Source of the DNA: Aggregatilineales bacterium
GTDB taxonomy: Bacteria > Chloroflexota > Anaerolineae > Aggregatilineales > Phototrophicaceae
DNA: 64,000 nt
Reading direction: 5' to 3'
NCBI GenBank assembly: GCA_965214515.1
Contig: OZ243955.1
Coordinates: 2,657,773 to 2,721,772, forward strand
The translations under genes were made by a program, and so were the position numbers. This document shows positions 16,398 through 22,070 of this stretch, piece by piece. The notes beneath the pieces were generated by a model that had not been told where the DNA came from, did no database searches, and saw only the letters and a program-made list of their open reading frames with translations. Each line of letters starts with the position of its first letter. Within the stretch, counting starts at the first letter, position 1.

Positions 16398-18212
16398 ATG
16401 TCAGCCGCCTTGCTCTGGCGGCGAGCAGATGGAGTCAAAAACGGCATGTCCGAAGCGGAAACCCCTACATTCAACGCGGTGAATGAACTGCGGCAGCTTG
16501 AGGGCCTCCTTGAGCAGGTATCGGCGGCGCTGGCGGCACAGCGAGAATTGCTGCGGCGGCATGGGCTGGCGATGCCGACGAAGATACTCGACAGCGCGAG
16601 CCGCATCCAACAGGATTTCAAGCGGCTGGAAAAGACCATCCTGGCAGACCAAACCGAGCTTCAGCAGCTGCGGGCGCTGGCGGATATGTCCGTCAGAATG
16701 ACGAACTCACTGGATATTGATACGGTGCTGCAAGAAACCATGGAGCTGGTCATCGTGCTGACCCAGGCCGAGCGGGGCTATATCATCCTCAAGAATGATG
16801 ACACGGGGGAATTGGAATTTCGGATAAGCAGCGAGAGCGGCGTTTTAGGCACAAGCGCGACTGGGGGCGCAGTCCCGCAGATTAGCATGTCGGTTGTTGC
16901 TGAGGTGATGAATACCCGTGAGCCGCTGCTGGCGGACAATGCCTATCAGGATGAGCGTCTGGCGAGCAATCAGAGCATCATCAACTTTACCCTGCGTTCG
17001 GTGCTTTGCGTGCCGCTGCAATACAAAGACGAGACCATTGGCGTTGTTTATGTCGATAATCGCCTGCTTGCGGGCCTCTTCACCGAGCGCGAAAAGACGC
17101 TGCTGCTGGCTTTTGCCAATACGGCGGCGGTAGCGATTGCCAATGCCCGCATGTACACCCGCACCGAGCAGATTCTGGTGGAAATCACCCGCGTGAAAGA
17201 GTTGATGGACAACATTTTTTCATCGCTAGGCAGCGGCATCATTGCGACCGACTCCGATGATTTGGTGCGAACCTTTAACCGCGCCGCCAGCGAGATTTTG
17301 AACCTTGCCCCGGATGCTGCGGTTGGCAGCACGGTCGAGCAGGTGCTTCAGAGCGCCATTTTCCAGCTGCCTGACCAATTGGATTGGGTCAAGGAGAGGG
17401 ATATGGAGCAGACCCTGGAGCTTCATGCGGAATTGCCGGGGCGCGGGCGGGTCGCGCTGAACCTGTCTTTATCGCCCTTGAAAGACAGCAGCGATATGAC
17501 GCAGGGCTTGACTGTGGTGATGGATGATGTCACCTATTTGCATGAACACGAAACCACCATCAACGCCATGAAGCGCATCCTGCCCGAAAGCATGGTTGAC
17601 CAGATTAACGAAATCGCCAATATCGAGATGGGGGGGATGCGCCGCGAAGTGACCTGCGTCTTTGGGGATGTGCGCCCGCTGACGACGCTGGCGGCGGTCA
17701 CACCCAGCGAAAAGCTGAAAATTATCAACCAGTATCAGGCGATTGCGACTGACTGCATCCATGAATGCGGCGGGATTATCGATAAATATATGGGCAATGA
17801 GGTGATGGCGCTCTTCAATACGCAGCTTAATCCGCAACAGAACCATGCACAGCAGGCGCTGGAATGCAGCCTGTTGATGCGTGACCGCTTTATCGAACTG
17901 TATCGGGAGTTGGATATTGACCCCGACCCGCATTATTATATCATCGGGATGTTCACGGGCGAGGCGACCCTGGGCAATGTCGGCAGTTTCAATCGGCGTG
18001 AATTCACGGCCTTAGGGCATACCATCAACACGGCTAGGCGCGTGCAGGAAAACGCCGCGCCGGGCAGCATCACCATCGCACAGCAGACCCTAGAGCATAT
18101 CCGTAAAAATAGCAAGGGCATCATGCCTTACGAGTTCTGTGAGCGTGCGCTCATCTTTGGCAAGGGAATCTCGCAGGGTATGCGGGCATACGAGGTCTAT
18201 CGCAGTCAATGA
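16398..18212 (+). CDS. Coiled-coil / GAF / PAS / class III nucleotidyl cyclase protein (paralog 1; second metal Asp replaced)
   Basis: GAF core (AERGYIILKNDDTGELEF...VLCVPL), a PAS-like middle and a C-terminal cyclase domain. The cyclase has VFGDV (first Asp present), DKYMGNEVMALF (GD changed to GN) and GHTINTARRVQ (Asn and Arg present). Alternative start at 16446. Confidence 0.85.
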   Translation: MSAALLWRRADGVKNGMSEAETPTFNAVNELRQLEGLLEQVSAALAAQRELLRRHGLAMPTKILDSASRIQQDFKRLEKTILADQTELQQLRALADMSVRMTNSLDIDTVLQETMELVIVLTQAERGYIILKNDDTGELEFRISSESGVLGTSATGGAVPQISMSVVAEVMNTREPLLADNAYQDERLASNQSIINFTLRSVLCVPLQYKDETIGVVYVDNRLLAGLFTEREKTLLLAFANTAAVAIANARMYTRTEQILVEITRVKELMDNIFSSLGSGIIATDSDDLVRTFNRAASEILNLAPDAAVGSTVEQVLQSAIFQLPDQLDWVKERDMEQTLELHAELPGRGRVALNLSLSPLKDSSDMTQGLTVVMDDVTYLHEHETTINAMKRILPESMVDQINEIANIEMGGMRREVTCVFGDVRPLTTLAAVTPSEKLKIINQYQAIATDCIHECGGIIDKYMGNEVMALFNTQLNPQQNHAQQALECSLLMRDRFIELYRELDIDPDPHYYIIGMFTGEATLGNVGSFNRREFTALGHTINTARRVQENAAPGSITIAQQTLEHIRKNSKGIMPYEFCERALIFGKGISQGMRAYEVYRSQ

Positions 18213-19948
18213 ACCAGGAGAGCGGTTTCGTCACCATTCAGGCGCAGCTGAGGCGGCTGAAGGGGCGCACAGAAGAAGTGAAAAAGCTGCTGGAACAGCA
18301 GCAGCGGCTTCTTCGGCGGCGCGGAATCAGACTGCCTGCCAGCGCGATTGACGGCTTGTGGTCGCTGCGCGGCAGCATTGACAGGCTGTCGCTGGGGCTG
18401 GTGGATTCCCAGATGCAGCTTCAGCAGCTTCGGCGGCTGGCGGAAACCAGCGCCTTAATCAACTCGGCGCAGGAGACTGGCCAAGTTCTCAATCAGGTGA
18501 TGGAAACCGTGATTCAGCTGACACAGGCGGAACGCGGTTATATTGTGCTAAAGAACCGCGACAGCGGCGAACTGGAGTTTCGGGTTGCCCGCGGCCTGAG
18601 CGCTGAGGAGAGCGCCATCGGCGGGCGAATTGTCAGTTGGTCAATCATCAATCGGGTAGCGGAAAGCGGCGAGCCGCTGCTGACGGTCAATGCCGGCGCT
18701 GATGACAACATCAGCCACAGCGAGAGCATCGTTGGTTTCTCCTTGCTGAGCATTCTGGCAGTGCCTTTGATTGTCCGCGATGAGGTGATTGGCGTTGCTT
18801 ATTGTGACAATCGGGTGATGGCGGGCCTGTTCGGGGAGAACGAACTCGAGCTGCTCACCAGCTTTGGACAGCAGGCGGCGGTGGCGATTGAAAACGCCCG
18901 CCTGTTTGAGGACATTCGGGCGCAGCTGGCGCTGATGGAGGCGATGCAAATTCGGCTGTCCAACATCTTCGCTTCGATTGGTTCGGGTGTGATTACCATC
19001 AACGGGGATAATGATGTGATTGTGTGCAACGAAGCGGCCGAGATCATCATCGGCGGCTGTCGTTCGGTGGGACGCCCCTTGCGAGAGGCGCTGCCCCGGA
19101 TGACCGAGGGCTTCTATGATTGCATCGAAGAGGTGCGTGCCGAGCGGATGCAGCAGATGTGGCTGGAGAAATTTGTACATCGTGGCCGCCAGAATTATTG
19201 GCAGGTGGTCGCCAGCCCATTGCGCAGCGAAGACCAGGTCAATCGCGGGATTGCGCTGGTCATTGATGATTTGACCGAACGCAAGGAGCAGGAAGAGCAG
19301 CGCCGTCTGCTGGGGACCTTTGTCCTTGAGGCGCTGATAGAGAATATCGATTCCATCAGAGAAATAGATACCAGCCCGACCGAACGCACGGTTTCTGCGA
19401 TGTTTGCCGACCTGCGCGGTTTTACGACCTTCAGTGAATATCTTCAGCCGGAAGCATTGATGAAAATCGTCAATCGCTATTTGGGCGCGGCGAGCGATGC
19501 GATGACATCTTGCGGCGGCATCGTGGACAAGTATCTGGGGGATGCGGTCACTGGCTTGTGGAACACCCAACTCAACCCGCAGGAGGAACACGCGGTGCGG
19601 GCAGTGCGGGCGGCGCAGGCGATTGTCGCTGCGGTGGATGGGCTGAACCAGGCGCTTGAGCCTGAGGAGCGACTCTATTTTGGCATCGGGGTTCATACTG
19701 GTCCCGCCGTTCTGGGGATGGTGGGCGGCGCCAGCCGCATTGAATTTGCCGCGCTGGGCGAGGCGACCGATGATTGCAAATTCTTGCAGGAAAATGCGCA
19801 GCCGGGCGAGATTGTCATCAGCGCCGAGACGTATGAACGGGTGAGACATCGCTTCGAAGCTGAAGCGATGAGGCCCAAAAAGATGAAAGCCGGCTTTGAG
19901 CGTCATGCGCGGGTGTATCGGGTCGGCAAGCGCCAACACGCGCCATGA
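18209..19948 (+). CDS. Coiled-coil / GAF / PAS / class III nucleotidyl cyclase protein (paralog 2; Asn/Arg positions replaced)
   Basis: Same architecture as the upstream gene, with an ATGA start/stop overlap. The cyclase motifs are MFADLRGFT and DKYLGDAV (both metal Asp present) but GEATDDCKFLQ in place of GDTVNxAxR. Confidence 0.85.
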   Translation: MNQESGFVTIQAQLRRLKGRTEEVKKLLEQQQRLLRRRGIRLPASAIDGLWSLRGSIDRLSLGLVDSQMQLQQLRRLAETSALINSAQETGQVLNQVMETVIQLTQAERGYIVLKNRDSGELEFRVARGLSAEESAIGGRIVSWSIINRVAESGEPLLTVNAGADDNISHSESIVGFSLLSILAVPLIVRDEVIGVAYCDNRVMAGLFGENELELLTSFGQQAAVAIENARLFEDIRAQLALMEAMQIRLSNIFASIGSGVITINGDNDVIVCNEAAEIIIGGCRSVGRPLREALPRMTEGFYDCIEEVRAERMQQMWLEKFVHRGRQNYWQVVASPLRSEDQVNRGIALVIDDLTERKEQEEQRRLLGTFVLEALIENIDSIREIDTSPTERTVSAMFADLRGFTTFSEYLQPEALMKIVNRYLGAASDAMTSCGGIVDKYLGDAVTGLWNTQLNPQEEHAVRAVRAAQAIVAAVDGLNQALEPEERLYFGIGVHTGPAVLGMVGGASRIEFAALGEATDDCKFLQENAQPGEIVISAETYERVRHRFEAEAMRPKKMKAGFERHARVYRVGKRQHAP

Positions 19949-20031
19949 GGCTGCATCTCGACCTCGAATCGGCGGCTGAAAAGCGGTATGATTATGGCCG
20001 AGTGTGTATCCTGTCGGTGCGGGAGAGACCC

Positions 20032-20193
20032 ATGCAACCCAATCCACTTTTTGCCATCGGCATCATTATCGGGCTGACAATCGGCATCTTTCTGGGCATT
20101 GGCATGGGTAACGTCGCCTTGGGGATGCCGGCTGGCGCGATGCTGGGTTTGCTTATCGGTTTGCTGATGGTAAAATCGGGCAGCGACCAGTAA
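20032..20193 (+). CDS. Small glycine-zipper membrane protein
   Basis: 53 aa, MQPNPLFAIGIIIGLTIGIFLGIGMGNVALGMPAGAMLGLLIGLLMV, with GGGAGAG upstream. The longer track ORF from 19945 has a non-hydrophobic leader. Confidence 0.45.
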   Translation: MQPNPLFAIGIIIGLTIGIFLGIGMGNVALGMPAGAMLGLLIGLLMVKSGSDQ

Positions 20194-20226
20194 GAGCGTT
20201 CCGCTTCACAGCCTGACGGTTATTCA

Positions 20227-21273
20227 GTGGCAAACGGGAGTGAAAGTATGCAGTCCAACAGTCAGGCATCCGAACAGTCGCCCCATGTCATCAGAACCCT
20301 GGGGCTGGCGCTGATTGCCGTTGTGGTGCTGGCTGGCATCATTTTTCAGGCGCTTCGTTCTGGCAGCGATTTGCCCTTGCTTGCGAGCGTCTTTGCCACG
20401 CGCTTTCTGGGCATCTTTGTCGAGGCGGTGCCATTTCTTCTGCTGGGTTCAATCACCTCTGGCTTGATTGAGATTTTCGTCAAGACCGAAGACGTCCTGC
20501 GCTGGCTGCCCAAAAATCAGTTGGGCGCGGCGCTTGGCGGGACCTTCCTCGGGCTTGCCTTTCCCGTCTGTGAATGTGGCGTGGTGCCGGTGACCCGCCG
20601 TTTATTCACCAAGGGCCTGCCCATTTCGATGGGCATTGCCTTTTTGCTGGCGGCGCCCTTTATGAACCCGATTGTGTTTGCCAGCACTTATATTGCCTTT
20701 GGATTCGGGCCGGTGCTTATCGGGCGTTTTGTCATCACGGCGCTGGTCGCTGTCACGGTTGGCATGGTGATTGGCGCGTTTGCCAAACCCGAAGAGGTGC
20801 TTAAACCCCAATCCATGCAGCCACTCGGCGGCGCCCAGCCCAAGCCGCCCGCGGTGCCGCTGCGGAGTCAATTCCTGCAGGCCTTCCATATCGCTGGTGA
20901 CGAATTTTTTGAGATGGGACGGTTTCTGATTATCGGTTCGGCTTTGGCGGCGCTGATGCAAACCATCGTCCCGCAGGAAAGCCTGCTGGCATTGGGGACG
21001 GGGCCGGTGTTCTCGGTGATGTTTATGCAGATTTTGGCATATATTCTCAGTGTCTGTTCGACTGTGGACAGCTTTCTGGCGCTGGCCTTTGTCAATACCT
21101 TCACCACTGGCGCGATTGTCAGTTTCCTGAGCTTTGGGCCGATGGTCGATATTAAAAGCACGTTGATGTTTAGCGGTGTCTTTCGGCGCAAAATTGTGAT
21201 GTATTTGATTCTCTTGCCCTTTGTGATGAACTTGCTGGCGGGGGTTTTAATCAATGCCGCCCTGGCGTACTGA
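20227..21273 (+). CDS. COG0701-type permease (ArsP/YraQ-like)
   Basis: [17 protein letters not shown]-terminal motif, a CECGVVPV motif, and 8-10 TM segments. Confidence 0.8.
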
Positions 21274-21302
21274 GAGTCAGCGAGGATGGGAGCGCGAATA
21301 AA

Positions 21303-22070
21303 TTGATACCCAAAGCCAAAGGCGAATCCCGAAGGCAAGTGGACTGGCGTGGCTGCGCCAAGTCGTCAATTCTGCTGGGCATGGGCAGCTATCTGGCCCT
21401 TTTGATTGCGACTGGTCATTTGACCAACTACATTAACCTGCGCTTTGCCTGGCTGGCTTATCTGGCGGCGGCCATCTTTTTCCTGCTGGGTCTGGTCAGC
21501 CTGTACGACCTGCTTCATCCCCAGCATGACGAGCCATCCGAACACCAGCCGCATTCGGGCCATAGCTGTCACATCACCTGGGGGATGCTGGCGGTGACGG
21601 CTTTTCCCTTGATGCTGGCGGTCTTGATTCCCTCGCGCCCGTTGGGCATCGAAGCGGTCAATGGCGGCATCAGCCTGAATCCGGTGGGCGTCGATACCGC
21701 CACCGCCTTTACCCGCAATCCGCTTGACCGCAACATTCTGGATTGGCTGCGCCAGTTCAACCGCATTCAAAGGCCAGCCGAGCTCAACGGCCAGCCGGTG
21801 GATGTGATTGGTTTTGTCTATCGGGAGCCGAGTTTCCCCGAGGATGAGTTGATGGTGTCGCGCTTTACCATGAGCTGCTGCGTCGCTGATGCCTACCCGA
21901 TTGGCTTGCCAGTGCGCTCCGAATCGGCCGACACATTCACCGCTGGCCGCTGGGTGCGGGTGCAGGGAAAACTCAAGGCGAGTCATTTTGGCGCGGATTA
22001 TCTGCCAGTCGTCGAAGCTGACCACATCGAGATTGTCGAAGAACCCGCCCAGGCCTATCTCTATCCCTAA
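21303..22070 (+). CDS. TIGR03943 (DUF1980) family two-TM protein, usual partner of COG0701 permeases
   Basis: Two N-terminal TM helices, a His-rich loop (HPQHDEPSEHQPHSGHSCH) and the C-terminal RFTMSCCVADA motif. The start is uncertain (TTG 21303 or GTG 21339). Confidence 0.7.
   Translation: MIPKAKGESRRQVDWRGCAKSSILLGMGSYLALLIATGHLTNYINLRFAWLAYLAAAIFFLLGLVSLYDLLHPQHDEPSEHQPHSGHSCHITWGMLAVTAFPLMLAVLIPSRPLGIEAVNGGISLNPVGVDTATAFTRNPLDRNILDWLRQFNRIQRPAELNGQPVDVIGFVYREPSFPEDELMVSRFTMSCCVADAYPIGLPVRSESADTFTAGRWVRVQGKLKASHFGADYLPVVEADHIEIVEEPAQAYLYP

What the first reader, a model, noticed from the sequence alone, without database searches (positions are those of the whole stretch)
16398..19948. 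Tandem GAF-PAS-cyclase paralogs with complementary active-site degeneracy, a predicted obligate heterodimeric class III cyclase
Seen in the sequence: two adjacent genes with the same architecture (coiled-coil N-terminus, GAF, PAS-like, class III cyclase domain) are joined by an ATGA stop/start overlap.
- Paralog 1 keeps the first metal Asp (VFGDV) but has GN instead of GD at the second (DKYMGNEVM). It retains the substrate Lys, a Thr at the adenine-specifying position (EFTALG) and the transition-state Asn/Arg (GHTINTARR).
- Paralog 2 keeps both metal Asp residues (MFADLRGFT, DKYLGDAV). It has GEATDDCKF where GDTVNxAxR is expected, so Asn is replaced by Asp and the Arg is lost.
Established knowledge: class III cyclase active sites form at the dimer interface. 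One protomer donates the two Asp residues and the other donates Lys/Asp(Thr)/Asn/Arg, as in mammalian C1/C2.
Inference: neither homodimer would have a complete site, whereas a 1:2 heterodimer has exactly one intact site plus one degenerate, possibly regulatory, pocket. Two different GAF/PAS sensor sets would then be integrated on a single catalytic centre.
Basis: partly seen in the sequence, partly recalled or inferred. Interest (0 to 1): 0.6.

Follow-up and report, generated by a model that had tools for sequence, protein, structure and literature searches.

The report
Two-gene heterodimeric bacterial adenylyl cyclase
Two overlapping sister genes in a Chloroflexota bacterium each keep only one half of an adenylyl cyclase active site, so they most likely make cAMP only as a mixed pair, a design described for animal cyclases whereas the reviews I could read call bacterial ones same-subunit dimers.

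Summary
Gene 1 is 16398-18212 (likely start 16446) and gene 2 is 18209-19948; they overlap by ATGA. Both encode a helical hairpin, GAF, PAS and a class III cyclase domain. Aligned to Spirulina CyaC (D1017/K1057/D1061/T1139/N1146/R1150), gene 1 reads D-K-N-T-N-R and gene 2 reads D-K-D-A-D-F. They are the only class III cyclase domains in the 3.74 Mb genome.

Comparative evidence supports the heterodimer reading:
- In every tandem pair examined in the order Aggregatilineales, the upstream protein lacks the second metal Asp but keeps K/T/N/R, and the downstream protein keeps both Asp residues but never the Arg.
- All 39 single-copy orthologues examined are canonical.
- Trees show one duplication of a canonical ancestor, reciprocal loss, then parallel diversification of the two copies.

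The most likely function is an obligate heterodimeric adenylyl cyclase of class IIIb type, with one active site and one degenerate pocket. No assay was possible, so activity, pairing and product are inferred.

I found no paper describing such a natural bacterial pair; the reviews I read call bacterial class III cyclases homodimers. This scan had already noted the same gene family on two other genomes, and analogous pairs in other phyla.

The parts
16398..18212 (+). Gene 1, the 'C2-like' subunit: helical hairpin, GAF, PAS, class III cyclase domain. Longest ORF is 604 aa. The likely true start is ATG 16446 (588 aa).
   Evidence: ORF. Pfam GAF, PAS_4 and PF00211. Start codon reasoning. AF2 model with pLDDT 76.
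16476..16706 (+).
   Evidence: AF2 helices 11-38 and 45-87 in the 588-aa numbering.
16710..17141 (+). Gene 1 GAF domain. It has no NKFDE cNMP-binding motif.
   Evidence: Pfam GAF/GAF_2, residues 105-248, E 1.8e-16. Motif search.
17202..17540 (+). Gene 1 PAS domain.
   Evidence: Pfam PAS_4/PAS, residues 269-381. AF2 strands 264-361.
17643..18203 (+). Gene 1 cyclase homology domain. It keeps K463, T537, N544 and R548, has Asn467 in place of metal Asp 2, and has a degenerate phosphate loop (GDVRPLTT).
   Evidence: PF00211 E 2.9e-9. Alignment to CyaC 1WC1. Coordinates.
17796..17798 (+). Codon for Asn467 of protein 1, at the position of the second metal-binding Asp (CyaC D1061).
   Evidence: This position is N, S, T or H, never D, in every upstream paralog examined.
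18209..18212 (+). ATGA stop/start overlap that couples translation of the two genes.
   Evidence: Of 78 related pairs, 51 have the same 4-nt overlap and 16 have a 1-nt overlap.
18209..19948 (+). Gene 2, the 'C1-like' subunit: helical hairpin, GAF, PAS, class III cyclase domain; 579 aa.
   Evidence: ORF. Pfam. AF2 model with pLDDT 75. The exact sequence is in the public protein collection, unnamed.
18479..18892 (+). Gene 2 GAF domain.
   Evidence: Pfam GAF, residues 91-228, E 2.4e-16.
18953..19288 (+). Gene 2 PAS domain.
   Evidence: Pfam PAS/PAS_4, residues 249-360.
19382..19933 (+). Gene 2 cyclase homology domain. It keeps both metal Asp residues (D401, D445) and the ADLRGFT phosphate loop. 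It has A514, D521 and F525 in place of Thr, Asn and Arg.
   Evidence: PF00211 E 3.6e-14. Alignment to CyaC 1WC1. Coordinates. Foldseek TM 0.78-0.87 to CyaC, Cya2 and CyaB.
19781..19783 (+). Codon for Phe525 of protein 2, at the position of the transition-state Arg (CyaC R1150).
   Evidence: This position is never Arg in any downstream paralog examined.

Best explanation
The two genes encode the two different subunits of one obligate heterodimeric adenylyl cyclase of class IIIb type. Class III cyclase sites form across the dimer interface. One subunit gives the two metal-binding Asp residues and the phosphate loop. The other gives the base-specifying Lys and Thr and the transition-state Asn and Arg.

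Here protein 2 can supply only the metal and phosphate half (D401, D445, RGFT loop). Protein 1 can supply only the base and transition-state half (K463, T537, N544, R548). A 1:2 dimer therefore has one complete ATP-to-cAMP site and one degenerate pocket, while each homodimer lacks an essential residue in both of its sites.

The ATGA overlap should give roughly equal amounts of both subunits. Each subunit brings its own helical hairpin, GAF and PAS sensor set, so two sensor sets act on one catalytic centre.

The arrangement arose by one tandem duplication of a canonical, presumably homodimeric, GAF-PAS cyclase inside the order Aggregatilineales, followed by reciprocal loss of residues. The likely receivers of the cAMP are the genome's two cNMP-binding proteins: a CRP/FNR-type regulator and a membrane protein with cNMP-binding and bPH domains.

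Shown here: the residues, their conservation pattern, the history of the duplication, and the absence of any other class III partner. Inferred: pairing, activity, the product, and signal integration.
For: - Residue equivalences to CyaC 1WC1 for both proteins.
- The two genes are the only PF00211 matches in the 3.74 Mb single-contig genome.
- An unbiased six-frame search of 40 related genomes found the tandem pair in all 24 genomes of the genus and in most other families of the order.
- In every pair the upstream protein is x-K-(N/S/T)-(T/S)-N-R and the downstream protein is D-(K/Q)-D-x-x-(not R). The same holds in 78 named pairs and in 4 pairs from other genera of the family.
- Single-copy orthologues are canonical DKD(T/S)NR in 39 of 39: 3 from family f4 of the same order, each confirmed as the only copy, and 36 from other orders of Anaerolineae.
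- In the trees the two paralog types are each one clade (SH-aLRT 98 and 99) and are sisters (100). Canonical single-copy lineages lie outside, and the two clades have mirror-image topologies.
- Other ancestrally invariant cyclase-domain residues are also kept on one side only: F428, E433, E437, L512 and V524 in the metal-side subunit; R415 in the other.
- Degeneration is progressive in the useless half-sites. Asp 1 of the upstream protein becomes N, E, F, Y or W in several lineages. Lys becomes Gln and Thr becomes Ala or Gly in the downstream protein within this genus.
- Gene order is constant and the stop/start overlap is widely conserved.
- Engineered complementary mutants of Rv1625c (D300A plus R376A) are inactive alone and active together (PMC4821796, read).
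- cNMP-binding receivers exist in the genome.
Against: - No biochemical, structural-complex or expression evidence was obtainable.
- In this particular genome protein 1 keeps five of the six residues, with Asn for Asp at metal site 2, so a weakly active protein 1 homodimer cannot be formally excluded.
- All pairs descend from one duplication. The many concordant pairs therefore show long-term maintenance, not many independent origins.
- The 78 named loci were retrieved partly through the pattern KYMGNEVM, which favours Asn at that position. The unbiased evidence is.
- A CYTH-domain protein is also present, so the pair is not provably the only cAMP source.
Confidence: 0.8

Rival explanations
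1. Protein 1 forms a weakly active homodimer in this genome, with Asn467 still helping to hold the metal. Protein 2 is a catalytically dead regulatory paralog that modulates it, or that titrates it into a less active heterodimer.
For: Protein 1 here keeps D424, K463, T537, N544 and R548, and differs only by Asp to Asn at metal site 2.
Against: - Its phosphate loop is also degenerate (RPLTT instead of RGFT).
- In many relatives the first Asp is lost as well (N, E, F, Y or W), yet K/T/N/R stay invariant. That makes sense only if those residues work with another subunit's Asp pair.
- Both Asp residues and the RGFT loop of protein 2 are invariant across the order, which is unexpected for a dead regulator.
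Confidence: 0.07
2. Each protein works mainly as a homodimer with a non-catalytic role (pseudo-enzyme, scaffold or nucleotide sensor). The complementary pattern is a by-product of relaxed selection after duplication.
For: Degenerate cyclase homology domains without known activity exist in many bacterial genomes (my own knowledge, not tested here).
Against: - Relaxed selection predicts decay at all six positions in both copies.
- Instead, each copy keeps exactly one half-site invariant over divergence down to about 40% identity, while the other half drifts.
- The tandem order and translational coupling are also maintained.
Confidence: 0.06
3. The heterodimer is catalytic but makes a product other than cAMP, such as cGMP or another cyclic nucleotide.
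For: The best sequence match among solved structures is the guanylyl cyclase Cya2 (2W01). Product specificity of class III enzymes is not always predictable from two residues.
Against: The base-side subunit keeps an invariant Lys and Thr (Ser in a few). This is the adenine-specifying pair of class IIIb adenylyl cyclases such as CyaC, not the Glu-based pair of guanylyl cyclases (established knowledge).
Confidence: 0.07

Closest known systems
Mammalian membrane adenylyl cyclases (C1/C2 pseudo-heterodimer, for example the VC1/IIC2 core and AC9)
   Same: One cyclase domain gives the two metal Asp residues. The other gives Lys, the base-specifying residue, Asn and Arg. The result is one active site plus one degenerate pseudo-symmetric pocket (the forskolin site), as described in PMC8815786 and PMC4821796.
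   Different: - C1 and C2 lie in one polypeptide with two membrane domains and belong to class IIIa. Here there are two separate soluble proteins of class IIIb type with GAF-PAS sensors.
- The origin is independent: both paralogs descend from one Anaerolineae gene.
- There is no G-protein regulation.
Soluble guanylate cyclase alpha/beta (animal NO receptor)
   Same: - Two different polypeptides with the same architecture (sensor, PAS, helix, cyclase domain) form an obligate heterodimer with one catalytic and one pseudo-symmetric site.
- Foldseek places the whole-protein model near sGC chains.
   Different: sGC has an H-NOX haem sensor instead of a hairpin and GAF, makes cGMP rather than the cAMP predicted here, and is eukaryotic.
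Engineered Rv1625c D300A + R376A heterodimer (Mycobacterium tuberculosis)
   Same: These are the same two kinds of lesion, metal Asp 2 in one subunit and the transition-state Arg in the other. Each mutant is inactive alone and activity returns when both are present (PMC4821796).
   Different: That heterodimer is a laboratory construct from one gene. Here the lesions are natural, fixed in two genes and maintained across an order of bacteria.
Class IIIb bacterial homodimeric cyclases: CyaC (Spirulina, 1WC0/1WC1), CyaB (P. aeruginosa, 3R5G), Cya2 (Synechocystis, 2W01). Anabaena CyaB1 (GAF-GAF-PAS-cyclase) is cited from my own knowledge.
   Same: - They are the best sequence and fold matches of both catalytic domains.
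- They have Thr at the base-specifying position.
- They have N-terminal GAF/PAS sensor modules.
   Different: - They are homodimers with two complete sites, whereas here each subunit has only a half-site.
- Here there is a single GAF preceded by a helical hairpin, with no NKFDE cNMP-binding motif.
Mammalian soluble adenylyl cyclase (ADCY10, C1-C2 in one chain)
   Same: It is of class IIIb type and has one active and one degenerate site. Protein 2 aligns best to its C1 region (residues 44-207, E 5e-11). The C-terminal half of protein 1 aligns to its C2 region (383-461, E 8e-6).
   Different: The two domains are fused in one chain, there are no GAF/PAS sensors, and the matches are weak. No common origin is shown.

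Membership tests
Class III nucleotidyl cyclase (Pfam PF00211, cyclase homology domain) | The cyclase homology domain is recognised above the curated threshold and adopts the fold. | tested here: met
   PF00211 scores 37.2 and 53.2 bits against a cut-off of 21.9. Foldseek TM 0.78-0.88 to solved cyclase domains.
Class III nucleotidyl cyclase (catalytically competent homodimer) | All six catalytic residues (two metal Asp, Lys, Asp/Thr, Asn, Arg) are present in one polypeptide. | tested here: not met
   Protein 1 has Asn at metal Asp 2. Protein 2 lacks Thr, Asn and Arg. Single-copy orthologues do meet this feature.
Class IIIb subclass | Thr (or Ser) replaces Asp at the base-specifying position, and the closest relatives are IIIb enzymes. 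| tested here: met
   T537 of protein 1 aligns with CyaC T1139. The top PDB matches are Cya2, CyaC, CyaB and sAC.
Heterodimeric class III cyclase with complementary half-sites (tmAC, sGC or sAC type) | One domain keeps only the metal half and the other keeps only the base and transition-state half. | tested here: met
   for this genome. for all related pairs. for further residues retained on one side only.
Heterodimeric class III cyclase with complementary half-sites (tmAC, sGC or sAC type) | The two subunits physically associate, and activity appears only in the heterodimer. | not testable with these tools
   Only single-chain structure prediction was available and no assay was possible. Indirect support comes from the absence of any other class III domain in the genome, the conserved tandem order and overlap, and the co-diversification of the two clades.
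Heterodimeric class III cyclase with complementary half-sites (tmAC, sGC or sAC type) | The degenerate pseudo-symmetric pocket serves as a regulatory ligand site. | not tested
   The pocket residues drift between lineages but are fairly constant within the genus, for example RPW in the upstream protein and PDVGKF in the downstream one. No ligand evidence exists.
CyaB1-type cNMP-activated GAF cyclases (Anabaena) | Tandem GAF domains carry the NKFDE cNMP-binding motif. | tested here: not met
   There is a single GAF per protein, and neither protein has an NKFDE-like motif.

The most novel reading that the evidence does not exclude
The pair is a natural two-input signal integrator. The two diverged GAF-PAS sensor sets must both adopt the active state to align the single composite site. 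The conserved degenerate pocket binds a small-molecule or nucleotide effector, a bacterial counterpart of the forskolin or bicarbonate sites of animal cyclases. On this reading the lineage preserves, still as two separate genes, the duplication and reciprocal-loss steps that would precede the fusion seen in animal pseudo-heterodimeric cyclases.
Probability: 0.25. Interest if true: 0.75.

Novelty: new variant of a known kind. Interest (0 to 1): 0.6.

Why it matters
The reviews I could read state that bacterial class III cyclases are homodimers with two equal sites, and that complementary heterodimers belong to eukaryotes (PMC9552081, PMC4821796, PMC8815786). A natural bacterial two-gene heterodimer would matter in three ways.
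- It would show that the step from symmetric homodimer to asymmetric enzyme with one site and one spare pocket happened in bacteria as well, by duplication and reciprocal loss and without gene fusion.
- It comes with living controls: canonical single-copy orthologues exist in sister lineages.
- It offers a small, soluble, expressible model for studying how two different sensor modules control one catalytic centre, and what a degenerate cyclase pocket is for.

The pair also looks like the only class III source of cAMP in this widespread, uncultured group. Several close relatives carry MAG bin names that look like sponge-metagenome series, which is my reading of the names and not a tested fact.

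Tried and rejected
- Heterodimer modelling: not possible, because structure prediction folds one chain only. The monomer models confirm the architecture but say nothing about pairing.
- Gene neighbourhood: the flanking amine oxidase, ArsP-type permease and DUF1980 genes are conserved only within the genus. They are absent from the loci of the more divergent pairs, so I rejected a functional link with the neighbours.
- R. centenum GcyB/GcyC as a known bacterial multi-subunit cyclase: the paper calls them non-catalytic subunits (PMC4681086), so this is not the same thing.
- Chytrid RGC/NeoR heterodimers: the partners RGC1 and RGC2 retain all residues known to matter for cyclisation (PMC8815786), so these are obligate heterodimers for another reason.
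- Shenoy et al. 2004 (PMC2447327): only the abstract and references are held, so I could not check whether it discusses heterodimers of degenerate bacterial cyclases. From memory, surveys of that period did speculate about this.
- Per-domain conservation: this did not show one sensor set decaying relative to the other.
- NCBIfam: gave no specific family for either protein.
Full report
**1. What is in the sequence**

The window holds two same-strand ORFs at 16398..18212 (604 aa) and 18209..19948 (579 aa). They overlap by ATGA. The two proteins are 38% identical over 550 residues.

Pfam finds GAF (E about 1e-16), PAS_4/PAS and the class III cyclase domain PF00211 above the curated cut-off in both. 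AlphaFold2 models were built on 24-sequence alignments (mean pLDDT 76 and 75). Both give the same layout:
- an N-terminal hairpin of two long helices;
- a GAF domain;
- a connector helix of about 45 residues;
- a PAS domain and a short helix;
- a confidently predicted cyclase domain.

Foldseek matches that domain to CyaB (3R5G, TM 0.87), Cya2 (2W01, 0.82) and CyaC (1WC1, 0.78). The whole chain loosely matches a phytochrome-cyclase fusion and soluble guanylate cyclase.

Gene 1 more likely starts at ATG 16446. A GGAG lies 11 nt upstream, relatives align only from residues 14-17, and the 604-aa form is absent from the protein collection while protein 2 is present.

**2. The catalytic residues**

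HMMER alignments to Spirulina CyaC fix the equivalences. In CyaC, D1017 and D1061 bind the metals, K1057 and T1139 read the adenine, and N1146 and R1150 stabilise the transition state.
- Protein 1: D424, K463, N467, T537, N544, R548. It lacks only the second metal Asp. It also has GDVRPLTT where the phosphate loop xDxRGFT is expected.
- Protein 2: D401, K441, D445, A514, D521, F525. It keeps both Asp residues and the ADLRGFT loop, but lacks Thr, Asn and Arg.

**3. Genomic setting**

The window lies in a 3.74 Mb single-contig genome. These two genes are its only PF00211 matches. Record titles of near relatives place it in Chloroflexota, Anaerolineae, Aggregatilineales, Phototrophicaceae, and all of them are metagenome-assembled genomes.

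The genome encodes two proteins with cNMP-binding domains:
- a 240-aa CRP/FNR-type regulator;
- a 595-aa membrane protein with cNMP-binding and bPH domains.

One CYTH-domain ORF is also present. It could be a class IV cyclase or a triphosphatase, so the pair is the only class III source of cAMP but not provably the only source.

The neighbouring genes (amine oxidase, ArsP-type permease, DUF1980) travel with the pair only inside the genus.

**4. Comparative test**

A six-frame search of 40 related genomes found the tandem pair in all 24 genomes of the genus and in most other families of the order. I extracted both genes from 38 loci.
- In every pair the upstream protein lacks metal Asp 2 (N, S or T) and sometimes Asp 1. 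It has a degenerate phosphate loop but keeps K, T (one S), N and R.
- In every pair the downstream protein keeps D...D and RGF(T/S), and never has the Arg (F, Y, L, K or Q instead).

The same holds in 78 complete pairs from named public records. That set was retrieved partly through a pattern containing the Asn, so it is biased at that one position. The pattern also holds in four pairs from other genera of the family.

The control is the single-copy state.
- Three genomes of one family of the same order carry exactly one orthologue, and it reads DKDTNR.
- A class-wide search of 250 Anaerolineae genomes found mostly single orthologues outside the order. All 36 that I fetched read DKD(T/S)NR with an intact RGF(T/S) loop.

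So a single copy goes with a complete site (39 of 39), and a tandem pair goes with reciprocal half-sites (every pair examined).

**5. History**

An IQ-TREE tree of 110 full-length proteins was rooted with distant GAF-PAS-cyclase paralogs (a smaller tree agrees).
- Each paralog type is one clade (SH-aLRT 98 and 99).
- The two clades are sisters (100).
- The canonical single-copy lineages lie outside them, including the single-copy family of the same order.
- The internal branching of the two paralog clades mirrors each other.

The simplest reading is one tandem duplication of a canonical gene within the order, then loss of Asp 2 in one copy and of Arg in the other, then joint inheritance.

Later losses accumulate only in the half-sites that had already become useless:
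- Asp 1 of the upstream copy becomes N, E, F, Y or W in several lineages.
- Asn, then Thr, then Lys of the downstream copy are replaced. This genus commonly has DQYLGD and A or G for Thr.

Other ancestrally invariant cyclase-domain residues are also retained on one side only:
- F428 of the GFT loop, E433, E437, L512 and V524 are kept only in the metal-side subunit.
- R415 is kept only in the other subunit.

The GAF and PAS domains of both copies are about as conserved as in single-copy relatives. The upstream-downstream order is constant. The stop/start overlap is 4 nt in 51 of 78 pairs and 1 nt in 16.

**6. Mechanism**

Established knowledge of class III cyclases is that the active site is shared between two domains. 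One domain gives the metal Asp pair. The other gives the base-recognising and transition-state residues (summarised in PMC8815786).

Engineered Rv1625c mutants D300A and R376A are each inactive and regain activity together (PMC4821796). These are the same two kinds of lesion as here.

I therefore conclude, with about 0.8 confidence, that proteins 1 and 2 form an obligate heterodimer:
- one ATP-to-cAMP site is built from D401, D445 and the phosphate loop of protein 2 with K463, T537, N544 and R548 of protein 1;
- one degenerate pocket is built from the mirror positions.

The invariant Lys/Thr pair on the base side points to ATP as the substrate. Pairing, activity, product and any role of the pocket are inferences, and nothing here measures them.

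**7. Rivals**

- A weakly active protein 1 homodimer cannot be excluded for this genome alone, since only Asp to Asn separates it from canonical. But relatives that have also lost Asp 1 still keep K/T/N/R invariant, which argues that these residues serve a partner's Asp pair.
- Non-catalytic pseudo-enzymes would be expected to decay at all positions, which is not what is seen.
- A product other than cAMP is possible but is not suggested by the residues.

**8. Comparison with what is known, and novelty**

In function the pair resembles three eukaryotic systems:
- mammalian membrane adenylyl cyclases (C1/C2);
- soluble adenylyl cyclase (C1-C2);
- most closely in organisation, soluble guanylate cyclase, which has two polypeptides each with a sensor, PAS, helix and cyclase domain.

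By descent it belongs to the bacterial class IIIb enzymes (CyaC, CyaB, Cya2). The reviews I could read describe bacterial class III cyclases as homodimers and complementary heterodimers as a feature of higher eukaryotes (PMC9552081; PMC4821796; PMC8815786). Six literature searches found no description of a natural bacterial pair. The library lacks many subscription reviews. From memory, early genome surveys speculated that degenerate bacterial cyclases might heterodimerise. I therefore rate this a new variant of a known kind, not a new category.

This scan had already noted the same orthologous gene pair on two other genomes (e1-3904178, e1-4161545), a similar Chloroflexota case (e1-5260959), and analogous pairs in other phyla. 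Those are unchecked AI notes and I did not use them as evidence. They do mean that this window is not the first sighting.

**9. Limits**

- All pairs trace to one duplication, so the evidence is for long maintenance under selection, not for repeated origin.
- All genomes are metagenome-assembled.

Noticed in passing
window 16398-16448: The longest ORF of gene 1 starts at 16398, but the ATG at 16446 has a GGAG 11 nt upstream and relatives align only from residues 14-17. The 604-aa form is not in the public protein collection, so the annotated start is probably 16446.
   Followed up: partly
window 19945-22070: A small glycine-rich membrane ORF, an ArsP_1/COG0701 permease (20227-21273) and a DUF1980/TIGR03943 protein (21303-22070) follow the cyclase pair. 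They accompany it only within the genus, so they are probably unrelated to it.
   Followed up: partly
G000:C1:1427027-1428814 (locus L139 1384-3171): A 595-aa membrane protein combines an N-terminal cNMP-binding domain with a bacterial PH (bPH_2) domain. It is a candidate non-transcriptional cAMP receiver of unknown function.
   Followed up: no
G000:C1:1570703-1571128: A single CYTH-domain ORF (221 aa) could be a class IV adenylyl cyclase or a triphosphatase. It was not examined further.
   Followed up: no
loci L141-L143 (family f4 genomes G027, G039, G033): The single-copy family of the order also carries a more distant GAF-PAS-cyclase paralog (about 25% identity, roughly 650-720 aa). In my alignment it reads D at the Lys position (DDD(A/S)NR). 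This may be an alignment artefact at that divergence.
   Followed up: no
loci L134 and L136 (record titles): One pair-bearing contig is labelled 'uncultured Pleurocapsa sp.' and another 'Ardenticatenia bacterium', although their cyclases nest inside the Aggregatilineales clades. These are probably binning or labelling errors in the public records.
   Followed up: no
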